Assembly (NCBI GenBank): GCA_964625945.1
Contig: CAZVDP010000007.1
Span: 6,135 to 70,134 of the forward strand
DNA from: an uncultured Dehalococcoidia bacterium
GTDB taxonomy: Bacteria; Chloroflexota; Dehalococcoidia; Lucifugimonadales; UBA1127
DNA: 64,000 nt
Direction of reading: 5' to 3'
Of this stretch, positions 1-63,453 are shown in pieces (positions within the stretch are counted from its first letter, which is position 1; every line of letters starts with the position of its first letter). A program made the position numbers and the translations under genes. A model generated the notes under the pieces. It saw nothing but the letters and a program-made list of their open reading frames with translations, had not been told where the DNA came from and made no database searches.

Positions 1-984
1 ATGAGTCAGATTGACCACCCGATAGAGTTGTACCTGGGGTTCGCTGGAATCCGGACTTTAGGCCAAGGAACCCTCATGCTTGCCAGTACTACGATGGTCG
101 CCGTATGGTTCGTACGACTCCGCGGCCGAGCAATGGCTATAGCGACCTTAGGGTCGGCATTAAGCTTCGCCAGCTTCCCGCCGCTGGTTCATTTTTTTAT
201 TGAACAGTTTGAATGGCGCGGTGCGTGGATCGGTCTCAGCATATTAATTTGGTGCACGCTCCCACTGATGCTCCTTGCGAGAAGGAGCCCAGAATCGATG
301 GGCCTCCTCCCAGACGGGGCCATTGCAATAGACCGCACCGGAGACACCGGAAACGATACTCTACATGCAACTCCAGAGATTTCCTTCACTCTTACCGAAG
401 CAATGAAGACCCGTTCGTTCTGGCTTCTCCTGTTTGCTAGTATGCCTCACTCCTTGATCACCACAGCCATGGTATTCCATATGGGTTCACTCATGACCTC
501 AAGAGGATTAGCGACGAGCCTTGCACCTCAGGTTTTAAGCGTCATGGCCGTTATATCATTGCTGGGCACACTCATAGCAGGTTATTTATCCGACAAGATT
601 CCTAATCGTTACCTTATCGCAGCTGGGCATATCCTGCTCGCTGTGGGTATGGTCTGGACATTCATCACCGGCCATACATGGCAAGGCTTAGCCTTGGGAG
701 CGATCATCGGGATATCGAGTGGCTTAACCCATACTGCGAACAATGTAATCTGGCCAAACTATTTCGGGAGACGCCATTTGGGTGCGATCAGAGGAGTCGC
801 GACTACCGGTATGGTAGCATTCGCCGCTGTCGGTCCATTTCCGTTTGGGGTTCTCTTCGATATGACAGGGACATACACCGTTCCACTCGTCATTTTCTTG
901 TTTCTCCCTTTGGCTTGCGCTACAGCAATCCTGCAAGCTTATCCTCCCAAGAAGAACGGATCTGAAGACATTGACAGTCAGTAA
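1..984 (+). CDS. MFS-type transporter (5' end cut by the window edge)
   Basis: The frame is open from base 1 to TAA at 982-984. The protein is multi-pass and hydrophobic, with MFS-like organisation. Confidence 0.7.
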   Translation: MSQIDHPIELYLGFAGIRTLGQGTLMLASTTMVAVWFVRLRGRAMAIATLGSALSFASFPPLVHFFIEQFEWRGAWIGLSILIWCTLPLMLLARRSPESMGLLPDGAIAIDRTGDTGNDTLHATPEISFTLTEAMKTRSFWLLLFASMPHSLITTAMVFHMGSLMTSRGLATSLAPQVLSVMAVISLLGTLIAGYLSDKIPNRYLIAAGHILLAVGMVWTFITGHTWQGLALGAIIGISSGLTHTANNVIWPNYFGRRHLGAIRGVATTGMVAFAAVGPFPFGVLFDMTGTYTVPLVIFLFLPLACATAILQAYPPKKNGSEDIDSQ

Positions 985-1040
985 AGAGGAGTCTAAAGTC
1001 AGACTACTCGATTCAATCTCGCATCCAAAAAGGAGACGTT

Positions 1041-1793
1041 ATGGGAAGCCTTGATGCACCAAAGAAACATGTTAGTGATGAACTCATTGAAACCGCGAAA
1101 AAGGCAAGTAGCGCAACCATCTCATATGAACTACAGAAGAGAGGCTTCCGTTTCGTCTATATGGCCGGAGTGCTCCCGGTCAAGGCAGGTACAATCGTGG
1201 CTGGCAGAGCCTACACACTCCGCTACCTGCCTAAGCGCGAAGATCATCCACAGTACCCGTTTACGAGAGAAGTCTCGGAGAAATATGCTGAGCATGTCGC
1301 TATTGAAGCTGTCGGCAAAGGTGATGTCTTGGTAATCGATGCGAGAGGAAATGTCGGAGCTGGCGTATTCGGTGATCGCCTGGTTGCGCGAATGGAATAC
1401 CGTGGCGCAGCTGGACTAGTTACGGACGGAGCGATCCGAGACGTGCCGTACCTGAAGGGGCAGGACTTCCCTGTGTTTATCCGCGCCCCACATGGCTATG
1501 GACACAACGCCGAACACTTCGCCATGGATGTACAACTCCCGATCTCCTGCGGAAACGTATTGGTATATCCAGGGGATCTTTTGGTAGGCGATGACGATGG
1601 AGTTGTCGTTTGCCCTCAAGCAATCGCGGAAGAAGTCATTCGAGACGCAGTTGCTCAAGAAGAAGAAGAAACATTCACTAGAGAACTAATCCAAGAAGGG
1701 GCCCATATTGTCAGTGTGCACGGCACTTTGACAGGTGACACTTTAGAGCGTTACAAGAAGTGGCGTGCAGCCCACGGCCTTCCCCCAATTTAG
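1041..1793 (+). CDS. RraA-family protein (long form; HMG/CHA aldolase / oxaloacetate decarboxylase-like)
   Basis: It has the RraA-family core 'GDVLVID...GLVTDGAIRDV...GDLLVGDDDGVVV'. AGGAGA precedes the ATG. It is a paralog of 31733..32443. Confidence 0.75.
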   Translation: MGSLDAPKKHVSDELIETAKKASSATISYELQKRGFRFVYMAGVLPVKAGTIVAGRAYTLRYLPKREDHPQYPFTREVSEKYAEHVAIEAVGKGDVLVIDARGNVGAGVFGDRLVARMEYRGAAGLVTDGAIRDVPYLKGQDFPVFIRAPHGYGHNAEHFAMDVQLPISCGNVLVYPGDLLVGDDDGVVVCPQAIAEEVIRDAVAQEEEETFTRELIQEGAHIVSVHGTLTGDTLERYKKWRAAHGLPPI

Positions 1794-1831
1794 GCCGATT
1801 TACCCTCACAAGGAGAGATGGCGTGGGCGAG

Positions 1832-2803
1832 ATGCGGATTGATGTGTTCTTCACATCAGACGACAGGAAAAAGTCGCTGATGCGGGATGTTGAGCATGGA
1901 CTTACTTCGCGACCAAAAACCTTACTCCCTAAGTATTTTTACGATGCGGTTGGGTCCGAGCTATTTGAACAGATCACAGAGCTTCCAGAATATTACTTAA
2001 CACGAACTGAATCTCAGCTTCTGTCATCCGTAGCCCGTACTACTATTTCTCGTGTATGTCCCGAAGAGGTGATAGAACTTGGATCAGGCTCATCGACAAA
2101 GGCTAAGGTCGTCCTAGAACCCGCCTACGCGACGGGGCGATTGTCCTCCTATGTTCCGTTCGATGTAAGTGAATCAGCGTTAACAATGGCAGCTGAGGAA
2201 TTGACTCAAGAATATCCTTCACTAAATGTACACGGGATCGTTGGTGACTTCGAGACAGATCTCGATAAAATCCCGCAACCCAACGGGCGGCGACTTCTGC
2301 TTCTGCTAGGAAGTACAATTGGAAATTTGAACGCGGATTCCCGACACAAATTCCTAGTAGCCATGCGGGCGATCCTAGGACCTGAGGATGCGCTCCTCCT
2401 CGGTGTAGATTTAGTAAAGAGCGTCGATATGCTGCACGCCGCCTATAATGACAAATTGGGCATTACAGCCGCGTTCAATCGGAATATTCTCGCCGTATTA
2501 AACAGAGAACTTGGTGCGAACTTCAATCCTGATGAGTTCCAACACTACGCGTTCTACAACCCTTCTTCCGCTCGAGTCGAAATGCACTTGATCCCTTATG
2601 TAAAGCAAATAGTCGCAATTGAATCGTTATGCCTTTCAATAGAAATCCAACCCAATGAAAGTATCTGGACAGAAAGTTCATACAAGTTCACCCGCGAATC
2701 AACAGTAACCATGTTGGAGACGGCGGGATTCTCACTAAAAGATTGGTCAACGGATTCTGATGAACAAGTTGGCCTAGTCCTGGCAACCCTTCAGCAACGT
2801 TAA
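1832..2803 (+). CDS. egtD: L-histidine N-alpha-methyltransferase (hercynine synthase, EgtD type)
   Basis: It is collinear with EgtD hallmark stretches: 'LPKYFYDAVGSELFEQITELPEYYLTRTE', 'ELGSGSSTK', 'LGSTIGN', 'TAAFNRNILAVLNREL'. The track ORF starts at 1760, overlapping the upstream gene. The likely start is ATG 1832, or GTG 1823 with AGGAGA at 1811-1816. Confidence 0.9.
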   Translation: MRIDVFFTSDDRKKSLMRDVEHGLTSRPKTLLPKYFYDAVGSELFEQITELPEYYLTRTESQLLSSVARTTISRVCPEEVIELGSGSSTKAKVVLEPAYATGRLSSYVPFDVSESALTMAAEELTQEYPSLNVHGIVGDFETDLDKIPQPNGRRLLLLLGSTIGNLNADSRHKFLVAMRAILGPEDALLLGVDLVKSVDMLHAAYNDKLGITAAFNRNILAVLNRELGANFNPDEFQHYAFYNPSSARVEMHLIPYVKQIVAIESLCLSIEIQPNESIWTESSYKFTRESTVTMLETAGFSLKDWSTDSDEQVGLVLATLQQR

Positions 2804-2824
2804 GCCCCTGCTAACGGGACTCGT

Positions 2825-3775
2825 TCATACGATCTCTTTGAGAAGATGTTCCCATGCTGTCATTTCGCGTTGAGGACTGAACCATGGGGCGAGATCGCGA
2901 CAGTGCTCACGCAATAGCTGTAACAAAGACCGATCGTTTTCTAGTTTCAAAAGTAATGTAGCTAAACCCTTCGTGTCACCAACCTGAAAATATGCCGGAT
3001 AGTCTGACCCTAACAATCCAACAGATCCAGGAATTTCAGAGGCGACTATTGGCACGTGATCGACGATGGCTTCAGAGATTACATTCGCTCCGCCTTCGAG
3101 TCGAGAAGATAGGACCAACACTTGGCTCCTAGCCATGATTTGTCGTGCCTGATCACGTGAACAATCGCCAAGCCACAAGAACCGAGGGTTCTTCTTCATC
3201 TCTGACGTCGCTCTCCGCGCCATTGAATCTGACATAGCACTACCTACTTGCAGAATTCGGATTCGCGATGATTTTGGCAGGAGCCGCGATGCTAAAGCCG
3301 TCCGGAAAGGATCCTTTACGGGTCTCAAATGTGCGACAACACAAACATCAAAATGCGTATCTTCGCTGCTCGTTGAATACGGCGTCGGATCTACAGATTG
3401 ATGTATCACACGCACTTTCGCACGTAAGTCAGACGGGATCTCTAATGCTGCTAGGGCTTGGAGTGTGACTAGTCTACTCGCAATATTCAACGACCGTACT
3501 GCTGAAACGCTACTGGAGATATCTTTGTAAACATCTGTACCCGTTAGAGCAACCACAATGGGAGTTTGTGGATGCAAACGGGAAAATCGTTCGATTGCAT
3601 GAGCACTACGCCTTGCGTGAAGAGCAATCATCAGGTCTGCTTCCTCTTCGTCGTAGCGTTCTGAAACCATTACCTGATGGCCTAGAGATGCCAAGATCGA
3701 TTGCCATCGTAGTGCTGTCACACGATTCCCGTGACGACTGCCCTTAGGCGCGGGAGTAATGATTTGAATTTTCAT
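2825..3775 (-). CDS. senB: Glycosyltransferase of the TIGR04348 / SenB (selenosugar synthase) type
   Basis: The N-terminus 'ITPAPKGSRHGNRVTALRW...LGHQV' and the overall GT-B-like length match my recollection of the selenium-linked TIGR04348 family. It is the last gene of an operon with EgtB-like and SelD genes. Confidence 0.7.
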   Translation of the reverse strand: MKIQIITPAPKGSRHGNRVTALRWQSILASLGHQVMVSERYDEEEADLMIALHARRSAHAIERFSRLHPQTPIVVALTGTDVYKDISSSVSAVRSLNIASRLVTLQALAALEIPSDLRAKVRVIHQSVDPTPYSTSSEDTHFDVCVVAHLRPVKDPFRTALASRLLPKSSRIRILQVGSAMSDSMARRATSEMKKNPRFLWLGDCSRDQARQIMARSQVLVLSSRLEGGANVISEAIVDHVPIVASEIPGSVGLLGSDYPAYFQVGDTKGLATLLLKLENDRSLLQLLREHCRDLAPWFSPQREMTAWEHLLKEIV

Positions 3776-3809
3776 CTCATCAGTCTCTTCCAGTCATGAC
3801 TGTCGCCTG

Positions 3810-5117
3810 TTATACGGCACATGTTCGGAATCCAGAGAATATATCATTCCGATCTGGGGTGAAAAAATTACGCCAAGTATTACGAACCAGCCTTGATCTG
3901 GTAGCCCAACACCCTCCCCTCAAAACACGGCGGTCGCCGAACCATGGGGCGGAATATTCTTTATATGGATCAAGAACAAAGCCAGGGAACGGCCAGAACC
4001 GATCCTCTACCCATTCCCACACATTGCCCAGCATCTGTCGACAACCAAACGCGCTATCGCCCTGAGGGGAACCATTAACATCGATGACCCCGCGATTACG
4101 GCCGTCAAGATTGGCATGTTCTAGCCGAGGAGCGGTATTGCCCCATGGGTATAAACGTTTTCCGGCATTTCCCGAATGCACCTCGGAGCTCGCCGCCATC
4201 TCCCATTCCGCCTCGGTGGGTAAACGGCGATGGGCCCATGCGCAAAAGGCAGTCGCCTCATACCAATTTATATGCATTACAGGGTGATCAGGAATGATTG
4301 GGGTCAATTGATCGAAGTTCCAACAACTCCAAGTGCCATCGGCATTCCTATCCCAATATCTAGGGGAGTCGACTCCTGCTCGTTGACGCCACGCCCAACC
4401 CCCAATATCCCAAAAATCTCTGTTGTTATATCCCCCGTCATCCACGAATGCCTGAAATTCAGCATTGGTTGTAGCGGTCGCAGCAATACGGAACGGTTGA
4501 ACCTCAACAGGGTGAGCCCACTTTTCGTTGTCAAACACGAAGTCTACTTTCGGATCCGCTCCCAAATAGAAAACCCCACCTGGAATCTCCACGTCCTTGC
4601 CGATAAGAGACGGATGGACTTGCTCATTGGGGGTTATAGCAAACAGAGGAGGGGCGGGATAGCGCAAGGCTTGGCGCGTGTAAGCGAGTGCTTCGGAGTG
4701 CATATCCTCATGAAACGTCGTCATTCTATAGAAATAATTCTCTCGCTCACTTAAAGCCATAGAGGAGAGGCGCTCGACACAAGCCTCCAAAACACTATCA
4801 AGATACTGTTTCGTCTCACACCGGTCTGGCAAAGCTAGATCCCAGCGCCAATCGTGAAACACTTCGAATGAATCGTAGAGGGCATCAGCATCTCGAAGCA
4901 AAGATCGACGACCATCGAGGTTGCGAAGTATCCATTTTTCCTGAAACCACGCTACATGACCAATTTCCCACATTGGCGGGTTTACGTTGGCTCCTTTCGG
5001 AACCAGAACCTGTGAGTCATCAAGATCAGAAACCATAGACAATAGCCGACGACGTGAATCTGTGACCCAGTCGATTAACTCATCTCGAACATCTGAAGGG
5101 GATTGTCCCGCAGACAT
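3810..5117 (-). CDS. senA: EgtB-like C-chalcogen bond-forming enzyme (DinB_2 N-domain + FGE-sulfatase C-domain), probably selenoneine synthase SenA
   Basis: It has a DinB-like N-terminal region with His residues. The C-terminal FGE-sulfatase signature is 'NVWEWV...RVLRGGCW'. It sits between the SelD gene and the SenB-like gene. Confidence 0.78.
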   Translation of the reverse strand: MSAGQSPSDVRDELIDWVTDSRRRLLSMVSDLDDSQVLVPKGANVNPPMWEIGHVAWFQEKWILRNLDGRRSLLRDADALYDSFEVFHDWRWDLALPDRCETKQYLDSVLEACVERLSSMALSERENYFYRMTTFHEDMHSEALAYTRQALRYPAPPLFAITPNEQVHPSLIGKDVEIPGGVFYLGADPKVDFVFDNEKWAHPVEVQPFRIAATATTNAEFQAFVDDGGYNNRDFWDIGGWAWRQRAGVDSPRYWDRNADGTWSCWNFDQLTPIIPDHPVMHINWYEATAFCAWAHRRLPTEAEWEMAASSEVHSGNAGKRLYPWGNTAPRLEHANLDGRNRGVIDVNGSPQGDSAFGCRQMLGNVWEWVEDRFWPFPGFVLDPYKEYSAPWFGDRRVLRGGCWATRSRLVRNTWRNFFTPDRNDIFSGFRTCAV

Positions 5118-5150
5118 GATTCAATTTCTTCCCAAAAACAGCAATCGCAC

Positions 5151-6194
5151 CTAAGAAACCACTCTGATCCCTGAATCTTCGCGAGAGATCACCTCTCCTA
5201 TGACAGCCGATTCCACGCCTCTCGACGACAGATTTCGGATGAGCAAATCAACCCTATCAGAGGGCAACGCTATTAGCAGGCCACCCGACGTTTGTGCATC
5301 ACAGAGGAGCACTTTTGTCTCTATCGACACAGTCGGACCCCACGCAACCTCACCTTCGAGGGCTTGAAGATTTTTTTGGGTTCCCCCAGCGACATTACCT
5401 TGTTGGAGCAATTCCCGAGTTCCCATGAGTACTGGCACACTACTCGCATCAATTACGGCCGTCACCTGACTACCATCAACCATGCCCCGAAGATGCCCTA
5501 GAAGACCGAAGCCCGTGACATCCGTGCAAGAGTGAGCACCAACAGCAATCATCGCTTCACTGGCATCCCGATTAAGTGTGGCCATAGTGGAAATTGCCAG
5601 ATCAATGACCTCCTGAGAGGCGTTCTGGGCTTTCGCCGCAGTAGTAATGATTCCGGTCCCAATTGGTTTAGTCAAAACTAAAACATCTCCCGGCTCGGCA
5701 CCAACATTTGAAACCTGTTCACCAGGCTTTACCACGCCAGTCACCGACAAACCGTACTTAGGCTCTTGATCTTGGATTGAATGACCGCCTACGATCAGGA
5801 CGCCGGCCTCCGCAGCTTTGTCAAAGCCTCCCCGCATCACGAGCGCCAATACCGACTTATCGATATCGGGGGGCCAGCACAGGATGTTCATCGCTACGAT
5901 AGGTCGACCTCCCATCGCGTAGACATCACTGAGGGAGTTTGCAACAGCAATCGCACCGTACCAGTAACCGTCGTCAACTATCGGTGGGAAAAAGTCTAGT
6001 GTTTGGATAAGAGCAACATCTTCTTGAATACGGTACACTGCCGCGTCATCTCGTGTAGCAACTCCAACGAGAAGATTCGGGTCTGTTACCGGAGGCATCG
6101 CACTCAGGACCTGTCCCAGGTCCTCGGGACTAAGCTTAGCCGCTCAGCCTGCGCAATTAGACAATGTCGTCAGGCGGAATCCCTTATCTTCCAT
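5151..6194 (-). CDS. selD: Selenide, water dikinase (selenophosphate synthetase SelD/SenC), selenocysteine-containing via in-frame TGA at 6146-6144
   Basis: The track ORF (5151..6098) lacks the SelD N-terminus. The minus strand reads GGAGGA-N6-ATG(6194) MEDKGFRLTTLSNCAG-TGA-AAKLSPEDLGQVLSAMPPVTDPNLLVG..., collinear with E. coli SelD '[25 protein letters not shown]...VDPNLLVG'. The TGA sits at the Cys17 position and the Lys20 equivalent is conserved. Confidence 0.88.
6106..6124 (-). promoter_or_regulatory. Candidate bacterial SECIS stem-loop downstream of the selD UGA
   Basis: The minus-strand RNA is AGGACCUG-GGA-CAGGUCCU, a perfect 8-bp stem with a G-rich apical loop. The stem starts 19 nt after the UGA, so the loop lies about 28-30 nt downstream. 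Confidence 0.5.
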
Positions 6195-6413
6195 GTCATT
6201 CCTCCGAGAAGGATAAATACCTACCAATAACTTATACTCCCGATCATTATAGCATCACTACTACCTTCTTAAACTACAACTGAACGCTCATTGACCGTAC
6301 CTTAAACGGATTGATACACTCGCGATGTCTTGCAACTCCCCCGAACCCTACAAAACCTAGTGAACACTACGAATGACATCGGCGAATCTTTTAAGTTCAG
6401 GACAGAATCAAAG

Positions 6414-7598
6414 ATGAGTCTAGTTTTATTCGGTGGAAATCTTTATACACCCGACTTCATAGAAGACGGCGCGGTCCTGATTCACGGCCACAAGATCTTG
6501 GCCGCCGGTGACCGTTCCCAGGTACTCTCAAATGATGAAGCTAAGAACGCTGAACTGATAGATATCCAAGGGAAGATTATAAGTCCCGGGCTTATTGACA
6601 TTCAGATCAATGGTGCAGGAGGAGCAGACTTTACAGGGAATCCCTTCCCTTCAAGTCTTCAAACCATTACAAGGCTACTCCCAGAATTTGGTTGTACGAG
6701 CTTCTTGCCAACCTTACTTTCCGCAAGCAATGAAACCATCTTGACGGCGTTACAAGCAACGAGATGGCTACGCGATAATCCCGAGAGTGGGGCACAGACC
6801 CTCGGACTCCATGTTGAAGGCCCATTTTTGAATCTCGAGCGGGCCGGGGCTCACAACACTAACCTAATCAGGGAGCCGTCGATGATTGATCTCAACCGCT
6901 GGCTGCAGGAAGCAGCCGGAGATCTCCGGCTGCTGACGTTGGCTCCCGAAATCCCAGGGGCTTCGACACTGATTCGCGAAGCCTCGCAAAGGGGGGTGCG
7001 AATCAGTTTAGGCCACACCGCAGCAACTTACCAAGAAGTAATGTCAGCATGGGATCAAGGAGCCTCCATAGTCACACACCTATTCAATGGGATGAAAGCA
7101 ATCTCTGCTAGAGAACCCGGGATCATCGGAGCAATATTCGATCATGATCAGTTCATTGCCACGATCATCGCAGATGGCATACATGTACACCCGGCGCTCC
7201 TTAGAGCTACGATCGGGATTATGGGGAGTGAAAGGGTAGTCCTGGTAACTGACGCCCTGTCGCCCGTGGGCACGAACATCGAACGTTTCCATCTCGGAAC
7301 AAGAGTCGTAGAAGTTCGAGGTGGAGCGTGCTACCTTGAAGACGGCACGCTCGCCGGAAGCATCCTTTCGATGGACCAAGCCATTAGAAATGTTGTGCGC
7401 TGGGTGGATCTACCGTTAGCGGATGCTTTCCGATTGGGAACCATAAACCCAGCGCGCGCGATCGGAGTGGAATCTTCGAAAGGGTCCTTAACTGCAGGCA
7501 AAGATGCAGACGTCGTCATTTGGACCCAAAGTCTTGAAGTAGAATTGGTCTTTACCAGGGGACTTGCAACGTATCAACGTTCAGGATTGTCGCAATGA
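6414..7598 (+). CDS. nagA: N-acetylglucosamine-6-phosphate deacetylase
   Basis: NagA/amidohydrolase motifs are present: 'PGLIDIQINGAGG', 'HVEGPFL', 'GHT', 'THLFNGM', 'ADGIHVHP', 'VTDA'. The track ORF begins at TTG 6330, but homology begins at 'MSLVLFGG' (ATG 6414). Confidence 0.85.
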   Translation: MSLVLFGGNLYTPDFIEDGAVLIHGHKILAAGDRSQVLSNDEAKNAELIDIQGKIISPGLIDIQINGAGGADFTGNPFPSSLQTITRLLPEFGCTSFLPTLLSASNETILTALQATRWLRDNPESGAQTLGLHVEGPFLNLERAGAHNTNLIREPSMIDLNRWLQEAAGDLRLLTLAPEIPGASTLIREASQRGVRISLGHTAATYQEVMSAWDQGASIVTHLFNGMKAISAREPGIIGAIFDHDQFIATIIADGIHVHPALLRATIGIMGSERVVLVTDALSPVGTNIERFHLGTRVVEVRGGACYLEDGTLAGSILSMDQAIRNVVRWVDLPLADAFRLGTINPARAIGVESSKGSLTAGKDADVVIWTQSLEVELVFTRGLATYQRSGLSQ

Positions 7599-8599
7599 AA
7601 CTAGGCGTAAGTTACTTCGGGAACCGAATACCATCGCACTACAAGAACCATGATCTACCCGAGATCCAAGCCGCCGGCTGTTCCTATGTGGTTCATACTT
7701 TTAGTGAGAACGACCTTAAATTCTACACCGGGACAATAGAGAAACTAATTGCTCTGACTCACTCCGCAGGACTTGAATCCCACATAGATCCGTGGGGCGT
7801 TGGGGGAATCTTTGGAGGTGAAGCTTTCAGCGAATTCCTCATCCTGAACCCAGATGCATGGCAGGTTCAAGTTGATGGAACACCTGTCCCTCAAGTATGC
7901 CTCCGTTCACCACGATTCCAAGAATTCATGCAAAACTGGATCAATACATCAGTCGCTATCGGCGCGGACATGTTTTTCTGGGATGAACCACAACTGATCA
8001 CAGAATCGACAGGAAAATTGGGATCTAATTCTGGGCACACCTGCTGGTGCTCAACGTGTAGGATGCTCTATGCCGACAGATATGGCGAGCCCATGCCGTA
8101 TCAGGTAACGGCACAGGTCCATGAATTCCTTCGCGAAACGGTAACCTGGTTTATCACAGATTTATGTCAATTTGGTGCAGCCCAAGGCGTACCTAGTACG
8201 GTGTGTCTTTCTCCAGCAGTTTTTGCACATCTCGGCGCTGACGCCATAGACACTATCGCCCAAATCCCAAGCGTTTCCACGCTCGGGATTACCCCATTCT
8301 GGCATCTTTGGAATCAACCCCACCGGAGGTATGTTCGAGAGCACGCGGACGCATTAGTAACTCTGTGCCGTCACTGGAAGAAAGAGCCCCAGTTATGGTT
8401 ACAAGGGTTTCTTATAGATGCTGGAAGAGAAATCGAAATCGGGGAAGCCGCAGACGAATCCATTCAAGCTGGAATTCGCAACCTGGCTGCATGGGGGTTC
8501 CAAGGTTGCGGCCATATGTCTTCAATGGCCCCGAGCCGCCCGGATGAAGTCTGGCGAGTCATCACAAAGAAATTTCAAAGACTCGAGGGCACACATTAG
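7595..8599 (+). CDS. Uncharacterised TIM-barrel / glycoside-hydrolase-like protein
   Basis: Its start ATG overlaps the nagA stop (ATGA at 7595-7598). The 'FFWDEP' segment resembles the catalytic-acid strand of clan GH-A enzymes. No specific family was recognised. Confidence 0.6.
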   Translation: MKLGVSYFGNRIPSHYKNHDLPEIQAAGCSYVVHTFSENDLKFYTGTIEKLIALTHSAGLESHIDPWGVGGIFGGEAFSEFLILNPDAWQVQVDGTPVPQVCLRSPRFQEFMQNWINTSVAIGADMFFWDEPQLITESTGKLGSNSGHTCWCSTCRMLYADRYGEPMPYQVTAQVHEFLRETVTWFITDLCQFGAAQGVPSTVCLSPAVFAHLGADAIDTIAQIPSVSTLGITPFWHLWNQPHRRYVREHADALVTLCRHWKKEPQLWLQGFLIDAGREIEIGEAADESIQAGIRNLAAWGFQGCGHMSSMAPSRPDEVWRVITKKFQRLEGTH

Positions 8600-8615
8600 C
8601 TAGCCCCTAAGTCCA

Positions 8616-9425
8616 TTATCCCCCGTTACCCGCAGCTTGCATGGCTAGAGCTTTGGGCTCCACATCAGTTGTCACAACCCGTTTAACCAAATCGATATCC
8701 ATCTCTTTCGCGATCGATGGATATCCTGCTCGCTCAAGCATCGCGCCCAGATTCCCTGACTTGAACTGGGAAAGCGTCCATGACAACGGATCGGGGACCA
8801 CTGTCATATCCCAATCAACAACCACGTTTTGGTTACGTGGACCATAGTGGTAGTGAGCGCCTCGATCAAAGCAATCGAAGGCGAGGAGCTCAATTTCTTG
8901 ACCAGCAACGTCACTGAGTACGTGGATGGCCATTCCACGCCCGATACTCAGATCGCGAAACTCAAGTCCAAACCTAACATTCCCTGCCTCGAAGACGGGG
9001 TCTCCACGGTAATGGACCGTGTGGCTTTTATGGCTTACAGCCAGAGATCGCGCGTGACTCTCGACGTTCGCGATCTCCTTTTCAAGGGTATCAGTGACGA
9101 TTTTTTTGGCCACAGAAGCATAGCCTCTTTTAGCGAGCATTTGCGGCAACCTTTCCTGTAACTGCCGAATTGTCCACCCAATGGGATTACCAGCGGTCGT
9201 CTTATCTAGCATCCATTTCTCATCCCCTGGTCCAATCCCATAATGGTAATGCGGTGCCTGATCGAAACAGTCGAAGCGCAGCAGTTCTGTCTCTGTCCCT
9301 GTGTCAGCGGTGAGTACTCGGATGGTTACACCTTGATCACCCTTGATAACCCTATGCTCAATTCCGAAACTGACAACTCCAGCATCAATCCGCTTCTCAC
9401 CACATCCCATGACTTTCTCCTCCAC
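8616..9425 (-). CDS. Hypothetical protein made of two tandem homologous domains (FDCFD...HYHYG motif)
   Basis: The 269-aa ORF has an internal duplication: approximately aa 16-125 aligns with approximately aa 146-255. No family was recognised. Confidence 0.7.
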   Translation of the reverse strand: MEEKVMGCGEKRIDAGVVSFGIEHRVIKGDQGVTIRVLTADTGTETELLRFDCFDQAPHYHYGIGPGDEKWMLDKTTAGNPIGWTIRQLQERLPQMLAKRGYASVAKKIVTDTLEKEIANVESHARSLAVSHKSHTVHYRGDPVFEAGNVRFGLEFRDLSIGRGMAIHVLSDVAGQEIELLAFDCFDRGAHYHYGPRNQNVVVDWDMTVVPDPLSWTLSQFKSGNLGAMLERAGYPSIAKEMDIDLVKRVVTTDVEPKALAMQAAGNGG

Positions 9426-31732: not shown

Positions 31733-32443
31733 ATGAGCAACCGAGACGTACCACAAAGCATCTTGACTCGATACGAAAACGTGAGTACCGCAACCATATA
31801 CACGTCCTTAAGTATTAACCAAGGGATTCGCTGTTTCCTCGAAGGTGTTCAACCCATGACCCCAGGTCGAAAAATGGCGGCGCGGGCACGGACTCTTCGT
31901 TGCCTACCACCACGCCCTGACTTCTATGAACAAGTCACAGACGGCGAAAATTCTCCAGAGTACCGAGCTATGGCCCTGTGTGGCCCCGGAGACGCACTGG
32001 TCGTAGACTTTATGCGGTGGCCTTATGCTACTGACCTAGGAGATGTGAAGCTGCTTCAGCTGCAAATGCAAGGTGCCAGCGGGTTTGTAACAGACGGGGC
32101 TATAAGAGACCTTGATGTAATCTCGACTTACGGCTTCCCAATATTCGCCCAGGCTCGGACTCCAAGCGCTTTGGAATATGGAAAGGCATTTGAAGAAAAC
32201 GTCCCTATCCAGTGCGCGGGAATCCTAGTAATGCCTGGCGACCTTGTAATCGGCGACAACGATGGAGTAGTCGTCGTACCAGCAGATCTCGCAGAATCGG
32301 TGCTCGATTGGGTAGAAGAGCATGAAAGCGCCGAGGAACACGTAAAGAGACGCATCCTAGAAACAAACTCTAATCCCGGCAAGTTCTATCCTCCCACCGA
32401 CGAACTCAAAGAGGAGCTTCGCCGCCAAAATAGCAGCAGCTAA
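31733..32443 (+). CDS. RraA-family protein (second long-form paralog)
   Basis: It has 'GDALVVD...GFVTDGAIRDL...GDLVIGDNDGVVVVP' and is collinear with 1041..1793. Confidence 0.75.
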   Translation: MSNRDVPQSILTRYENVSTATIYTSLSINQGIRCFLEGVQPMTPGRKMAARARTLRCLPPRPDFYEQVTDGENSPEYRAMALCGPGDALVVDFMRWPYATDLGDVKLLQLQMQGASGFVTDGAIRDLDVISTYGFPIFAQARTPSALEYGKAFEENVPIQCAGILVMPGDLVIGDNDGVVVVPADLAESVLDWVEEHESAEEHVKRRILETNSNPGKFYPPTDELKEELRRQNSSS

Positions 32444-62748: not shown

Positions 62749-63453
62749 ATGAACCAATTTAAGCGAGCAATGGTGGTTGTGGCTCACCCAGATGACGCCG
62801 AGTTTGGCTGTTCAGGGACAGTTGCGCGCTGGAGTGCCTCTGGGGTGGAGGTCACCTACGTCTTGTGTACAGACGGTAGCAAAGGAAGCGACGACGCTCA
62901 GATGACTTCAAGTCGCCTAGCACTAACCCGTAAGCATGAACAACAAGCTGCAGCCGAAGTACTTGGTGTCAAGAATGTTGTGTTCCTAGACTACCCAGAT
63001 AGTTATCTCATCCCCAATTTGGAACTCAGACGGGACATCGCGCGTGAAATCCGTCGACACCGTCCCCAAAAAGTGATCTGTCAGAATCCAATCCGCACAC
63101 TCGCCACTGGGAGAGGAAGTGGACATCCAGACCATATCGCAGCAGGAGAAGCTACTCTTTCCGCTGTCTTCCCAACCGCTCGTGACCGTCTAACTTTCCC
63201 AGAACTCCTAGAAGAAGGCTTGGAGCCACATGCTGTTGAGGAAGTCTTTATTTTCGGTACCGATATGCCTGATTGGTGGATCGACGTTTCAGGCTCGATT
63301 GACAAAGTGGTCGAAGCAATTAAACAACATAAAAGCCAAGTAGGCGATAGACTCGAGGAACTTGATGAACGCATGCGAGCATCAAGGCATTCAGTTGGGA
63401 AACAGCATGGGATGGAATTCGGAGAGGCATTCAAACGCTTAATCTATAATTAA
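62749..63453 (+). CDS. PIG-L / LmbE-family N-acetylglucosaminyl deacetylase
   Basis: It has 'VVVAHPDDAEFGCSGT' and 'HPDH', the zinc-binding motifs of the family. Confidence 0.8.
   Translation: MNQFKRAMVVVAHPDDAEFGCSGTVARWSASGVEVTYVLCTDGSKGSDDAQMTSSRLALTRKHEQQAAAEVLGVKNVVFLDYPDSYLIPNLELRRDIAREIRRHRPQKVICQNPIRTLATGRGSGHPDHIAAGEATLSAVFPTARDRLTFPELLEEGLEPHAVEEVFIFGTDMPDWWIDVSGSIDKVVEAIKQHKSQVGDRLEELDERMRASRHSVGKQHGMEFGEAFKRLIYN

What the first reader, a model, noticed from the sequence alone, without database searches (positions are those of the whole stretch)
1832..6194. Complete selenoneine-type gene set: egtD converging on a selD(senC)-senA-senB operon
The minus-strand operon runs 6194 to 2825. 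It encodes a selenophosphate synthetase, an EgtB-like DinB+FGE-sulfatase enzyme and a TIGR04348-like glycosyltransferase, separated by only 33- and 34-nt gaps. This is the three-gene architecture reported for selenoneine biosynthesis: SenC makes selenophosphate, SenB makes the selenosugar, and SenA forms the C-Se bond with hercynine. An unmistakable EgtD (hercynine synthase) ends 21 nt from the senB stop on the opposite strand. All four activities needed to go from histidine plus selenide to selenoneine are therefore co-located. No egtB/egtC/egtE-type sulfur-pathway genes are nearby. The same-strand MFS transporter (1..984) and RraA-like gene (1041..1793) upstream of egtD could belong to an extended locus. 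This is a specialised selenium natural-product pathway in an otherwise housekeeping region.
Basis: partly seen in the sequence, partly recalled or inferred. Interest (0 to 1): 0.8.

Follow-up and report, generated by a model that had tools for sequence, protein, structure and literature searches.

The report
Selenoneine gene cluster with its own egtD

Summary
A minus-strand operon selD(senC)-senA-senB (6194..2825, gaps of 33 and 34 nt) converges on egtD (1832..2803, 21 nt from the senB stop).

All four proteins pass NCBI's curated equivalog cut-offs:
- SenA: 492.6 bits against a cut-off of 420. The EgtB model fails, 326.7 against 360.
- SenB (TIGR04348): 386.9 against 300.
- SelD: 383 against 125.
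- EgtD: 344.5 against 291.

One rival needed real testing. The best solved-structure match of the "SenA" is OvsA, the ovoselenol enzyme. The active-site residues decide against it: at 11 diagnostic positions the protein is identical to Variovorax SenA (HHRHMHYYNFF), unlike OvsA or EgtB-I. It scores best against the OvsA-YNF mutant, which was shown experimentally to make selenoneine.

A conserved hairpin follows it.

The MFS and RraA-like genes are not conserved parts of the locus. A nagA plus unknown TIM-barrel gene pair next to selD does recur beside sen clusters in related Dehalococcoidia.

A co-localised egtD was already reported in 2022. Verdict: a new member of a known kind, of modest interest.

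The parts
5151..6194 (-). selD/senC, selenophosphate synthetase, 347 aa with selenocysteine at residue 17
   Evidence: TIGR00476 scores 383.3 bits against a cut-off of 125. It aligns full-length with E. coli SelD 3u0o at 248.6 bits, U17 matching C17 and K20 matching K20. GGAGG lies 6 nt before the ATG.
6144..6146 (-). in-frame UGA, read as selenocysteine (codon 17 of selD)
   Evidence: The same in-frame TGA is present in 12 of 18 sen-adjacent selD homologues. It is the only convincing TGA read-through candidate in the window.
6106..6124 (-). hairpin AGGACCUG-GGA-CAGGUCCU, 19 nt after the UGA; candidate bacterial SECIS
   Evidence: Folded; the 71-nt context has z = -1.9. The position is conserved in relatives, with one G-C to C-G compensatory pair. 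There is no Rfam match.
3810..5117 (-). senA, non-haem-iron selenoxide (selenoneine) synthase, 435 aa, DinB_2 + FGE-sulfatase domains
   Evidence: NF041186 scores 492.6 against 420; TIGR03440 EgtB scores 326.7, below its 360 cut-off. Pfam domains. The motif H54 H88 R91 H136 M139 H140 Y385 Y388 N417 F418 F419 equals that of V. paradoxus SenA.
2825..3775 (-). senB, selenosugar synthase (Se-glycosyltransferase), 316 aa
   Evidence: TIGR04348 scores 386.9 against 300. PDB SenB 8jjn/8fbx scores 205 bits. N17, T20, K154 and E227 (in EGGANV) match N20, T23, K158 and E231.
1832..2803 (+). egtD, histidine N-alpha-trimethyltransferase (hercynine synthase); the start may be 1823 or 1880
   Evidence: TIGR03438 scores 344.5 against 290.9. 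PF10017 hit. M. smegmatis EgtD 4uy5/4pim scores 266 bits full-length.
6414..7598 (+). nagA, GlcNAc-6-phosphate deacetylase, divergent from selD; possible accessory gene (longest ORF starts at 6330)
   Evidence: TIGR00221 scores 358.7 against 225.65. Gene callers start it at 6414. NagA homologues lie beside sen clusters in L084, L085/86 and L087.
7595..8599 (+). orf334, uncharacterised glycosidase-like TIM barrel overlapping the nagA stop by 4 nt; possible accessory gene
   Evidence: No Pfam, NCBIfam or PDB sequence hit. AF2 model pLDDT 92.7. Foldseek finds GH35/GH14/GH164/GH5-like barrels. Homologues lie next to sen/egtD in L068, L069 and L083-L087.
1041..1793 (+). RraA-like/aldolase family gene upstream of egtD; context only, not a conserved part
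   Evidence: NF006093 scores 232 against 208, and PF03737 hits. There is no homologue in 80 sen loci. A paralogue lies at 31733..32443.
1..984 (+). MFS transporter (C-terminal 327 of about 432 aa); context only, not a conserved part
   Evidence: PF07690 hits. There is no homologue in 80 sen loci or in L083-L087.

Best explanation
The locus is a self-sufficient selenoneine biosynthetic cluster of the published sen type. The proposed steps are these. SelD/SenC, itself a selenoprotein with Sec17, makes selenophosphate from selenide and ATP. SenB transfers the selenium to a UDP-sugar, most likely UDP-GlcNAc, to give 1-seleno-GlcNAc. EgtD trimethylates histidine to hercynine. SenA, with Fe(II) and O2, joins the selenosugar to C2 of hercynine as a selenoxide. 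That selenoxide eliminates the sugar as 2-acetamidoglucal and is reduced to selenoneine. What is shown here: the family membership of all four proteins, the active-site residues, the operon layout, the UGA codon and its hairpin. What is inferred from published biochemistry of homologues: the chemistry, the sugar donor and the product. The host is probably a marine SAR202-cluster (Dehalococcoidia) bacterium.
For: - All four proteins exceed NCBIfam equivalog cut-offs, while the EgtB model fails.
- SenA is identical to V. paradoxus SenA at 11 of 11 diagnostic positions. It also keeps N46/E51/R91, matching the SeGlcNAc-site residues N63/E68/R120, and F419 in place of EgtB Asp416.
- Its best PDB match is the OvsA M401Y/Q430N/A431F mutant (8ux5, 325 bits, above wild type at 316). 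That mutant was shown to make selenoneine from hercynine and SeGlcNAc.
- The SenB catalytic residues are conserved.
- About 70 of the 80 closest SenA homologues have senB adjacent, 15 have selD and about 20 have egtD. The same selD-senA-senB order occurs in Dehalococcoidia L015, L068 and L069 and in L083, L084 and L087.
- NCBI names close homologues 'selenoneine synthase SenA'.
- Gaps of 33 and 34 nt indicate one transcription unit.
- SAR202 assignment: a member of the 90% cluster is annotated SAR202.
Against: - No experiment exists on this protein set or on any member of its 'long' SenA sub-clade. It carries about 50 residues (311-363) that V. paradoxus SenA lacks, and it is only 43% identical to V. 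paradoxus SenA.
- By raw score it is nearer to OvsA and to EgtB-I than to V. paradoxus SenA.
- The sugar donor is not determined. SenB has EGGANV where characterised SenBs have EGGAHV.
- SelD needs Sec-insertion machinery (selA, selB, tRNA-Sec), and none is in the window.
- The taxon label rests on one partial protein in a 90% cluster.
Confidence: 0.9

Rival explanations
1. The cluster makes ovoselenol, not selenoneine. On this reading the NHISS is an OvsA that selenylates C5 of free histidine.
For: The best solved-structure hits are OvsA entries (8ux5 at 325 bits, 8u41 at 316 bits), above V. paradoxus SenA at 246 bits. In the tree, the OvsA clade is sister to the clade holding the window protein.
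Against: The three residues that define OvsA specificity (M401, Q430, A431) are Y388, N417 and F418 here, which is the SenA hercynine motif. The YNF mutant scores higher than wild-type OvsA. egtD is adjacent, whereas most ovs organisms lack egtD. No OvsM-type N-pi methyltransferase was found among the window's ORFs. A true OvsA-motif paralogue (L059, HHRHMHYMQAY) is only 38% identical.
Confidence: 0.03
2. The NHISS is a sulfur-specific EgtB and the locus makes ergothioneine. On this reading selD and the glycosyltransferase are unrelated neighbours.
For: Older annotations call near-identical or homologous proteins EgtB. The hit to M. thermoresistibile EgtB-I is 273 bits. egtD is shared by both pathways.
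Against: TIGR03440 scores 326.7, below its 360 cut-off, while SenA passes. The gamma-glutamylcysteine-binding residues R87 and D416, and Q137, are H, F and M here. There is no egtA, egtC or egtE in 64 kb. The gene sits in a tight operon between selD and senB, and senB is adjacent in about 70 of 80 homologous loci.
Confidence: 0.03
3. selD here is the organism's only, general-purpose selenophosphate synthetase, serving Sec and selenouridine as well, rather than a dedicated SenC paralogue. The operon simply taps the housekeeping enzyme. This refines the main explanation and does not contradict it.
For: It is a canonical full-length SelD (383 bits on the selD equivalog). It is a selenoprotein itself, so the cell must run the Sec pathway, which also needs SelD. 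Sec-type selD is the rule beside sen genes in Dehalococcoidia, Rubrobacter, Acidobacteriota and Gemmatimonadota.
Against: This cannot be judged from 64 kb; a second selD may lie elsewhere. Kayrouz et al. treat the clustered selD as SenC.
Confidence: 0.4
4. The same-strand MFS transporter and RraA-like gene belong to an extended selenoneine locus, for example for export or selenium uptake.
For: They share the egtD strand with short gaps (56 nt and about 30-38 nt). Kayrouz et al. mention a putative selenate transporter near some sen clusters. L087 has an unrelated MFS between egtD and senB.
Against: Neither has a homologue in 80 sen loci or in the five closest relatives. A second RraA-like paralogue sits 30 kb away in a housekeeping context. 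The best MFS family hits are weak, to lactate/oxalate-type carriers.
Confidence: 0.1

Closest known systems
Variovorax paradoxus senABC selenoneine cluster plus EgtD (Kayrouz et al. 2022; structures 8K5I/8K5J SenA, 8JJN/8FBX SenB)
   Same: It has the same three enzyme families plus EgtD. The SenA active-site motif is identical at 11 of 11 positions. The SenB catalytic Lys and the sugar-binding N/T/E residues are conserved. selD, the NHISS gene and the TIGR04348 gene are clustered.
   Different: SenA is only 43% identical and keeps a roughly 50-residue segment (311-363) that V. paradoxus SenA has lost. SenB has EGGANV instead of EGGAHV. The gene order is selD-senA-senB with a convergent egtD. 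SelD carries Sec rather than Cys. The host is Chloroflexota rather than a beta-proteobacterium.
Halomonas utahensis OvsA, ovoselenol pathway (8U41/8U42; YNF mutant 8UX5)
   Same: It is the closest solved structure by score (40% identity, full-length, same insertions). It uses the same selenosugar donor and shares the HxxRW, N..E and HxxMH residues.
   Different: At the three specificity positions OvsA has M, Q and A, while the window protein has Y, N and F. There is no OvsM methyltransferase, and egtD is present. The window enzyme resembles the engineered OvsA-YNF, which behaves as a SenA.
Mycobacterium thermoresistibile EgtB type I (4X8B/4X8D)
   Same: It has the same DinB + FGE fold, the three-His facial triad, the catalytic Tyr and a hercynine-binding Asn-aromatic pair. 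Identity is 38%.
   Different: R87, Q137, W415 and D416 of EgtB are H, M, F and F here. The protein is below the EgtB equivalog cut-off. No egtA, egtC or egtE is nearby.
Selenocysteine-containing bacterial SelD (selenoprotein form of E. coli SelD, 3U0O)
   Same: The in-frame UGA lies exactly at the Cys17 position, Lys20 is conserved, and a hairpin lies downstream of the UGA.
   Different: Here the Sec-SelD is the first gene of a small-molecule selenium operon. The hairpin matches no curated RNA family.

Membership tests
sen (selenoneine) biosynthetic gene cluster | SenA: an NHISS (DinB + FGE-sulfatase) that reaches the curated SenA equivalog score | tested here: met
   NF041186 scores 492.6 bits against a cut-off of 420. 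PF12867 and PF03781 both hit.
sen (selenoneine) biosynthetic gene cluster | SenA active-site composite motif: His triad, catalytic Tyr, hercynine motif Y/N/F, Phe replacing EgtB Asp416, and selenosugar-site N63/E68/R120 | tested here: met
   HHRHMHYYNFF is identical to V. paradoxus SenA. N46, E51 and R91 are present.
sen (selenoneine) biosynthetic gene cluster | SenB: a TIGR04348 glycosyltransferase with catalytic K158 and sugar-binding N20/T23/E231 | tested here: met
   386.9 bits against a cut-off of 300. K154, N17, T20 and E227 align. The motif reads EGGANV, not EGGAHV.
sen (selenoneine) biosynthetic gene cluster | SenC: a SelD homologue clustered with senA and senB | tested here: met
   TIGR00476 scores 383.3 bits. 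It lies 33 nt upstream of senA on the same strand.
sen (selenoneine) biosynthetic gene cluster | A source of hercynine (EgtD) | tested here: met
   TIGR03438 scores 344.5 against 290.9. The gene is convergent, 21 nt from the senB stop.
sen (selenoneine) biosynthetic gene cluster | Selenium-dependent production of selenoneine | not testable with these tools
   This needs expression and LC-MS.
ovs (ovoselenol) cluster | OvsA histidine-binding residues M401, Q430 and A431 | tested here: not met
   The window has Y388, N417 and F418.
ovs (ovoselenol) cluster | An associated OvsM N-pi methyltransferase, with egtD usually absent | tested here: not met
   No such methyltransferase was found among the window's annotated ORFs. 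egtD is adjacent.
EgtB type I (ergothioneine sulfoxide synthase) | Reaches the TIGR03440 equivalog cut-off | tested here: not met
   326.7 bits, below the 360 cut-off.
EgtB type I (ergothioneine sulfoxide synthase) | Gamma-glutamylcysteine-binding R87 and D416, plus Q137 | tested here: not met
   These positions are H88, F419 and M139.
Sec-containing SelD (bacterial selenoprotein) | An in-frame UGA aligned with catalytic Cys17 | tested here: met
   It recurs in 12 of 18 sen-linked selD genes.
Sec-containing SelD (bacterial selenoprotein) | A SECIS hairpin shortly downstream of the UGA | tested here: inconclusive
   An 8-bp hairpin with a GGA loop starts 19 nt after the UGA. Its position is conserved and there is one compensatory pair. 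However, z is only -1.9, the stem lies in conserved coding sequence, and no Rfam model matches.
Sec-containing SelD (bacterial selenoprotein) | selA, selB and tRNA-Sec in the genome | not testable with these tools
   None is in the 64-kb window. The rest of the genome was not available.

The most novel reading that the evidence does not exclude
In this SAR202/Dehalococcoidia lineage the sen cluster may have acquired a sugar-recycling side module. The module would be nagA plus an uncharacterised glycosidase-like TIM-barrel protein (orf334, 7595..8599), and in relatives a ROK kinase. It would salvage the GlcNAc-derived by-product of the SenA reaction. In this scheme orf334 hydrates 2-acetamidoglucal to GlcNAc, the ROK kinase phosphorylates it to GlcNAc-6-P, and NagA deacetylates it. 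No such step is part of the published pathway. The basis is that the module stays within a few kb of the sen/egtD genes in six differently arranged loci (window, L083, L084, L085/86, L087, L068/69). Against it, the wider orf334 family sits with AnmK, NamZ and NagA (peptidoglycan sugar recycling) and without sen genes, so the adjacency may be inherited synteny.
Probability: 0.15. Interest if true: 0.6.

Novelty: new member of a known kind. Interest (0 to 1): 0.3.

Why it matters
Selenoneine is the main organic selenium compound in tuna and other marine animals and is linked to methylmercury detoxification. Which ocean microbes make it is poorly documented. If the SAR202 assignment holds, a complete and self-sufficient sen + egtD cluster in a member of an abundant deep-ocean bacterial group would point to a plausible primary producer. 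I found no paper in the held library linking SAR202 and selenoneine.

It also shows that the 'long' SenA form is the widespread one across many phyla. This form is closer in sequence to OvsA and EgtB-I than to the crystallised Variovorax enzyme, and it can be told apart from them by a few residues.

Finally, the first gene of the operon is itself a selenoprotein, and gene callers truncate it (315 aa instead of 347 aa). For the biochemistry of the pathway nothing new is implied.

Tried and rejected
- **Ovoselenol reading.** It was raised by the PDB ranking and rejected on the M/Q/A versus Y/N/F residues, the presence of egtD and the lack of OvsM.
- **EgtB reading.** Rejected on the curated cut-off and the thiol-binding residues.
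- **MFS and RraA-like genes as part of the locus.** There are no homologues near 80 sen loci or the five closest relatives.
- **Promoter and terminator scan of 1..9000.** Counts were no higher than in shuffles, so it was uninformative.
- **Rfam searches for a SECIS.** Nothing was found at the gathering threshold over the whole window or at the permissive threshold over 6000..6260.
- **Other UGA-interrupted genes in the window.** Only selD is convincing.
- **Sequence search of orf334 against PDB, Pfam and NCBIfam.** No hits. Only the fold search gave information.
- **Broad test of the orf334-sen link.** In 80 metagenome loci there were no sen genes beside orf334 homologues outside the Dehalococcoidia sub-lineage. 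This lowers that hypothesis.
- **Exact organism.** The species is not among the GTDB representatives scanned; the best SenA match there is 57%. Only a 90%-cluster label 'SAR202 cluster bacterium' was obtained.

Full report
**Observation.**
- On the plus strand: MFS 1..984, RraA-like 1041..1793, egtD 1832..2803.
- On the minus strand: senB 3775..2825, the EgtB-like gene 5117..3810, and selD.
- The gaps are exactly 33, 34 and 21 nt.

The plain selD ORF is only 6098..5151 (315 aa), and that is how public gene callers annotate it. Translating further upstream gives MEDKGFRLTTLSNCAG-TGA-AAKLSPEDL..., starting from ATG 6194, which has a GGAGG 6 nt upstream. The TGA (6146..6144) aligns with catalytic Cys17 of E. 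coli SelD, and Lys20 is conserved. So selD runs 6194..5151 only if that UGA is read as selenocysteine. A scan for other UGA-interrupted genes in the window found no other convincing case.

**Family assignment.** Against NCBIfam all four proteins exceed the curated equivalog cut-offs.

| Protein | Model | Score (bits) | Cut-off (bits) |
|---|---|---|---|
| SenA | NF041186 | 492.6 | 420 |
| SenB | TIGR04348 | 386.9 | 300 |
| SelD | TIGR00476 | 383.3 | 125 |
| EgtD | TIGR03438 | 344.5 | 290.9 |

The same SenA protein scores 326.7 on EgtB TIGR03440, below that model's cut-off of 360. For SenB the next-best family reaches only 126.8 bits. Pfam gives DinB_2 + FGE-sulfatase, Glycos_transf_1, AIRS + AIRS_C and Methyltransf_33. 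Solved structures agree:
- SenB matches the V. paradoxus and Ramlibacter SenB structures at about 205 bits, against 24 bits for generic GT4 enzymes.
- EgtD matches M. smegmatis EgtD at 266 bits.
- SelD matches E. coli SelD at 249 bits.

The SenB residues shown by mutagenesis to be essential are N20, T23, K158 and E231 (PMC10891094). They align with N17, T20, K154 and E227. The surrounding motif reads EGGANV rather than EGGAHV.

**The rival that needed testing.** The best solved-structure match of the putative SenA is not SenA. It is OvsA, the ovoselenol selenoxide synthase (8ux5 at 325 bits, 8u41 at 316). Next come EgtB-I (273 bits) and only then V. paradoxus SenA (246 bits, in two pieces).

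The reason for this ranking is structural. V. paradoxus SenA lacks about 50 residues (query 311-363) that the window protein, OvsA and EgtB-I all keep. Over aligned columns the identities are 42.8% to V. paradoxus SenA, 40.4% to OvsA and 38.3% to EgtB-I.

The ovoselenol paper (PMC11030361) shows that subfamily function can be read from a few active-site residues. It also shows that three changes, M401Y/Q430N/A431F, convert OvsA into a selenoneine-forming enzyme. I aligned the window protein with the three reference sequences and 80 homologues. I read 11 diagnostic positions, in EgtB numbering: H51, R87, R90, H134, Q137, H138, Y377, Y380, N414, W415, D416.

| Protein | Residues at the 11 positions |
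|---|---|
| Window protein | HHRHMHYYNFF |
| V. paradoxus SenA | HHRHMHYYNFF |
| OvsA | HHRHMHYMQAY |
| EgtB-I | HRRHQHYYNWD |

Three further observations point the same way:
- The top PDB hit, 8ux5, is the YNF mutant, and it outscores wild-type OvsA because the window protein carries Y, N and F.
- The residues proposed to hold SeGlcNAc in SenA (N63, E68, R120) are present as N46, E51 and R91.
- The Phe that replaces Asp416 of EgtB is also present (PMC11237966).

In a neighbour-joining tree the window protein lies in a large clade of 'long' SenA-like proteins. That clade is sister to the OvsA clade, with V. paradoxus SenA and then EgtB-I outside. This agrees with the published statement that OvsA diverged recently from within the SenA family. 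Ovoselenol clusters carry OvsM and mostly lack egtD. Here egtD is adjacent, and no such methyltransferase was found among the annotated ORFs.

**Comparative context.** A scan of one genome per species returned 80 loci, 48-57% identical, all from uncultured bacteria of many phyla. tblastn with the window proteins gave these counts:
- senB adjacent in about 70 of 80 loci;
- selD adjacent in 15;
- egtD within the flanks in about 20;
- no homologues of the MFS, RraA-like or NagA proteins.

The same selD-senA-senB order occurs in three Dehalococcoidia MAGs (L015, L068, L069; SelD 54-60% identical). Closer relatives were found through exact-protein look-ups (L083, L084, L087; SenA 57-59% identical). 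They repeat the convergent layout, with egtD facing senB-senA-selD.

Kayrouz et al. [quoted passage not shown] The four-gene arrangement is therefore known. NCBI already names homologues 'selenoneine synthase SenA'.

**Selenocysteine in SelD.** Of 18 selD genes next to sen genes, 12 have an in-frame TGA at the catalytic position. These come from Dehalococcoidia, Rubrobacteraceae, Blastocatellia, Gemmatimonadaceae and Thermoanaerobaculia. The six proteobacterial genes have CGGCG, that is Cys.

In the window an 8-bp hairpin follows the UGA by 19 nt: AGGACCUG-GGA-CAGGUCCU, 6124..6106. The evidence on it is mixed:
- The closest relatives keep it with one G-C to C-G swap at the loop-closing pair.
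- More distant lineages have a different stem at nearly the same place.
- This fits a bacterial SECIS, but the 71-nt context folds with z of only -1.9.
- The stem lies in conserved coding sequence (SPEDLGQVL).
- No Rfam family matches.

I therefore rate the SECIS as probable, not shown. No selA, selB or tRNA-Sec is in the window.

**Surroundings.** The rest of the window is housekeeping. It includes:
- translation and tRNA genes: mnmA, glyS, valS;
- DNA and RNA maintenance: rnhB, sbcD, xerD, uvrC, dnaN;
- cofactor and nucleotide synthesis: thiE, folK, folP, coaX, coaBC, prs, purA;
- central metabolism: argC, mdh, carboxylase subunits, rpiB, pgi, gnd;
- secA.

There is no egtA, egtB, egtC or egtE. 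Promoter and terminator consensus scans were no better than chance.

A member of the 90%-identity cluster of the window's SenA is annotated 'SAR202 cluster bacterium', and there it is called EgtB. SAR202 belongs to the Dehalococcoidia, which is consistent with the nearest loci. The exact protein occurs in assemblies of SRR5002404 and SRR5002379.

**A side lead.** Divergent from selD lies nagA (TIGR00221, 358.7 bits). The following gene, orf334 (7595..8599), overlaps the nagA stop by 4 nt and has no Pfam, NCBIfam or PDB sequence match.

Homologues of orf334 lie within a few kb of sen/egtD genes in L068, L069, L083, L084, L085/86 and L087. The arrangements differ from locus to locus. Several include nagA, and two include a ROK kinase.

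An AlphaFold model built from 51 homologues is confident (pLDDT 92.7). It is a (beta/alpha)8 barrel. Its best Foldseek matches are GH35, GH14, GH164 and GH5 glycosidases (TM 0.60-0.67), followed by ketose epimerases. The family has an invariant FWDEPH stretch, E279 and a C-x-C-x2-C motif.

The SenA and OvsA reactions release the sugar as 2-acetamidoglucal. A salvage role is therefore conceivable: hydration, then phosphorylation, then deacetylation. That glycosidases can hydrate glycals is from my own knowledge and was not tested here.

The broader family argues for caution. In 80 metagenome loci, orf334 homologues sit beside AnmK (14 loci), NagA (12), NamZ (6) and ROK (5), and never beside sen genes. 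That set includes 48%-identical marine homologues with nagA. The general role of the family is therefore probably amino-sugar or peptidoglycan recycling. The link to sen may be inherited synteny. I give the functional link about 15%.

**Verdict.** The locus is a canonical selenoneine cluster with its own egtD, in a lineage and SenA sub-clade that have not been studied experimentally. It is a new member of a known kind. Curated models already recognise every gene, and the arrangement was reported in 2022.

Its value is mainly ecological, as a likely marine SAR202 producer of selenoneine, and practical. The practical points are that selD is mis-called because of the Sec codon, and that SenA, OvsA and EgtB can be separated by residue motif rather than by best hit.

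Noticed in passing
window 7595..8599 (+), with 6414..7598 nagA: orf334 is an uncharacterised, widespread protein family with no Pfam or NCBIfam model. It is predicted with high confidence to be a glycosidase-like TIM barrel with invariant FWDEPH, E279 and C-x-C-x2-C. Across metagenomes it sits next to AnmK, NamZ, NagA and ROK kinase genes, so it may be a new enzyme family of amino-sugar or peptidoglycan recycling.
   Followed up: partly
L084 12507..13367 and L087 12533..13387; L085/L086 13634..15028: Relatives of this cluster carry extra genes inside the sen/egtD neighbourhood. One is a class-I SAM methyltransferase plus a small zf-UBP protein upstream of egtD. Another is a 464-aa Pyr_redox_2 flavoprotein disulfide reductase between senA and egtD, a candidate diselenide reductase or Se-methylating step. 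Neither is present in the window.
   Followed up: no
L059 126..1400 (+) and 1488..2810 (-); L050 6578..7879 and 8001..9281; L067 210..1436: Some genomes carry two NHISS genes side by side. L059 (a Gammaproteobacteria MAG) has a SenA-motif gene next to an OvsA-motif gene (HHRHMHYMQAY). L050 has tandem SenA-like paralogues, the second with an unusual HRRHMHYCNFF motif. L067 has a second copy with EgtB-like R87/Q137.
   Followed up: no
L024, L034, L038, L042, L056, L062 (selD homologues beside senB): The proteobacterial sen-linked SelD homologues are only 34-38% identical to the window SelD. They use Cys (CGGCG) and appear to have long N-terminal extensions, unlike the Sec-type SelD of the other phyla. 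This suggests two different SenC lineages.
   Followed up: no
window 31733..32443 (+) and 1041..1793 (+): There are two RraA-like/aldolase-family paralogues in one window. Both hit NF006093, but only the first passes its cut-off (232 bits against 208; the second scores 170). Their function is unknown.
   Followed up: no
window 8616..9425 (-): A protein made of two DUF7700 repeats (PF24777) lies directly downstream of orf334. It is conserved in the 90%-identical metagenome contig L092 but not in more distant relatives.
   Followed up: no
window 62749..63453 (+): A PIG-L/LmbE-type GlcNAc de-N-acetylase family protein, the family that includes the mycothiol and bacillithiol deacetylases. It lies far from the sen cluster.
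   Followed up: no
window 1823..1880: The egtD start is ambiguous. The EgtD profile match begins at residue 16 of the 1832 version.
   Followed up: partly
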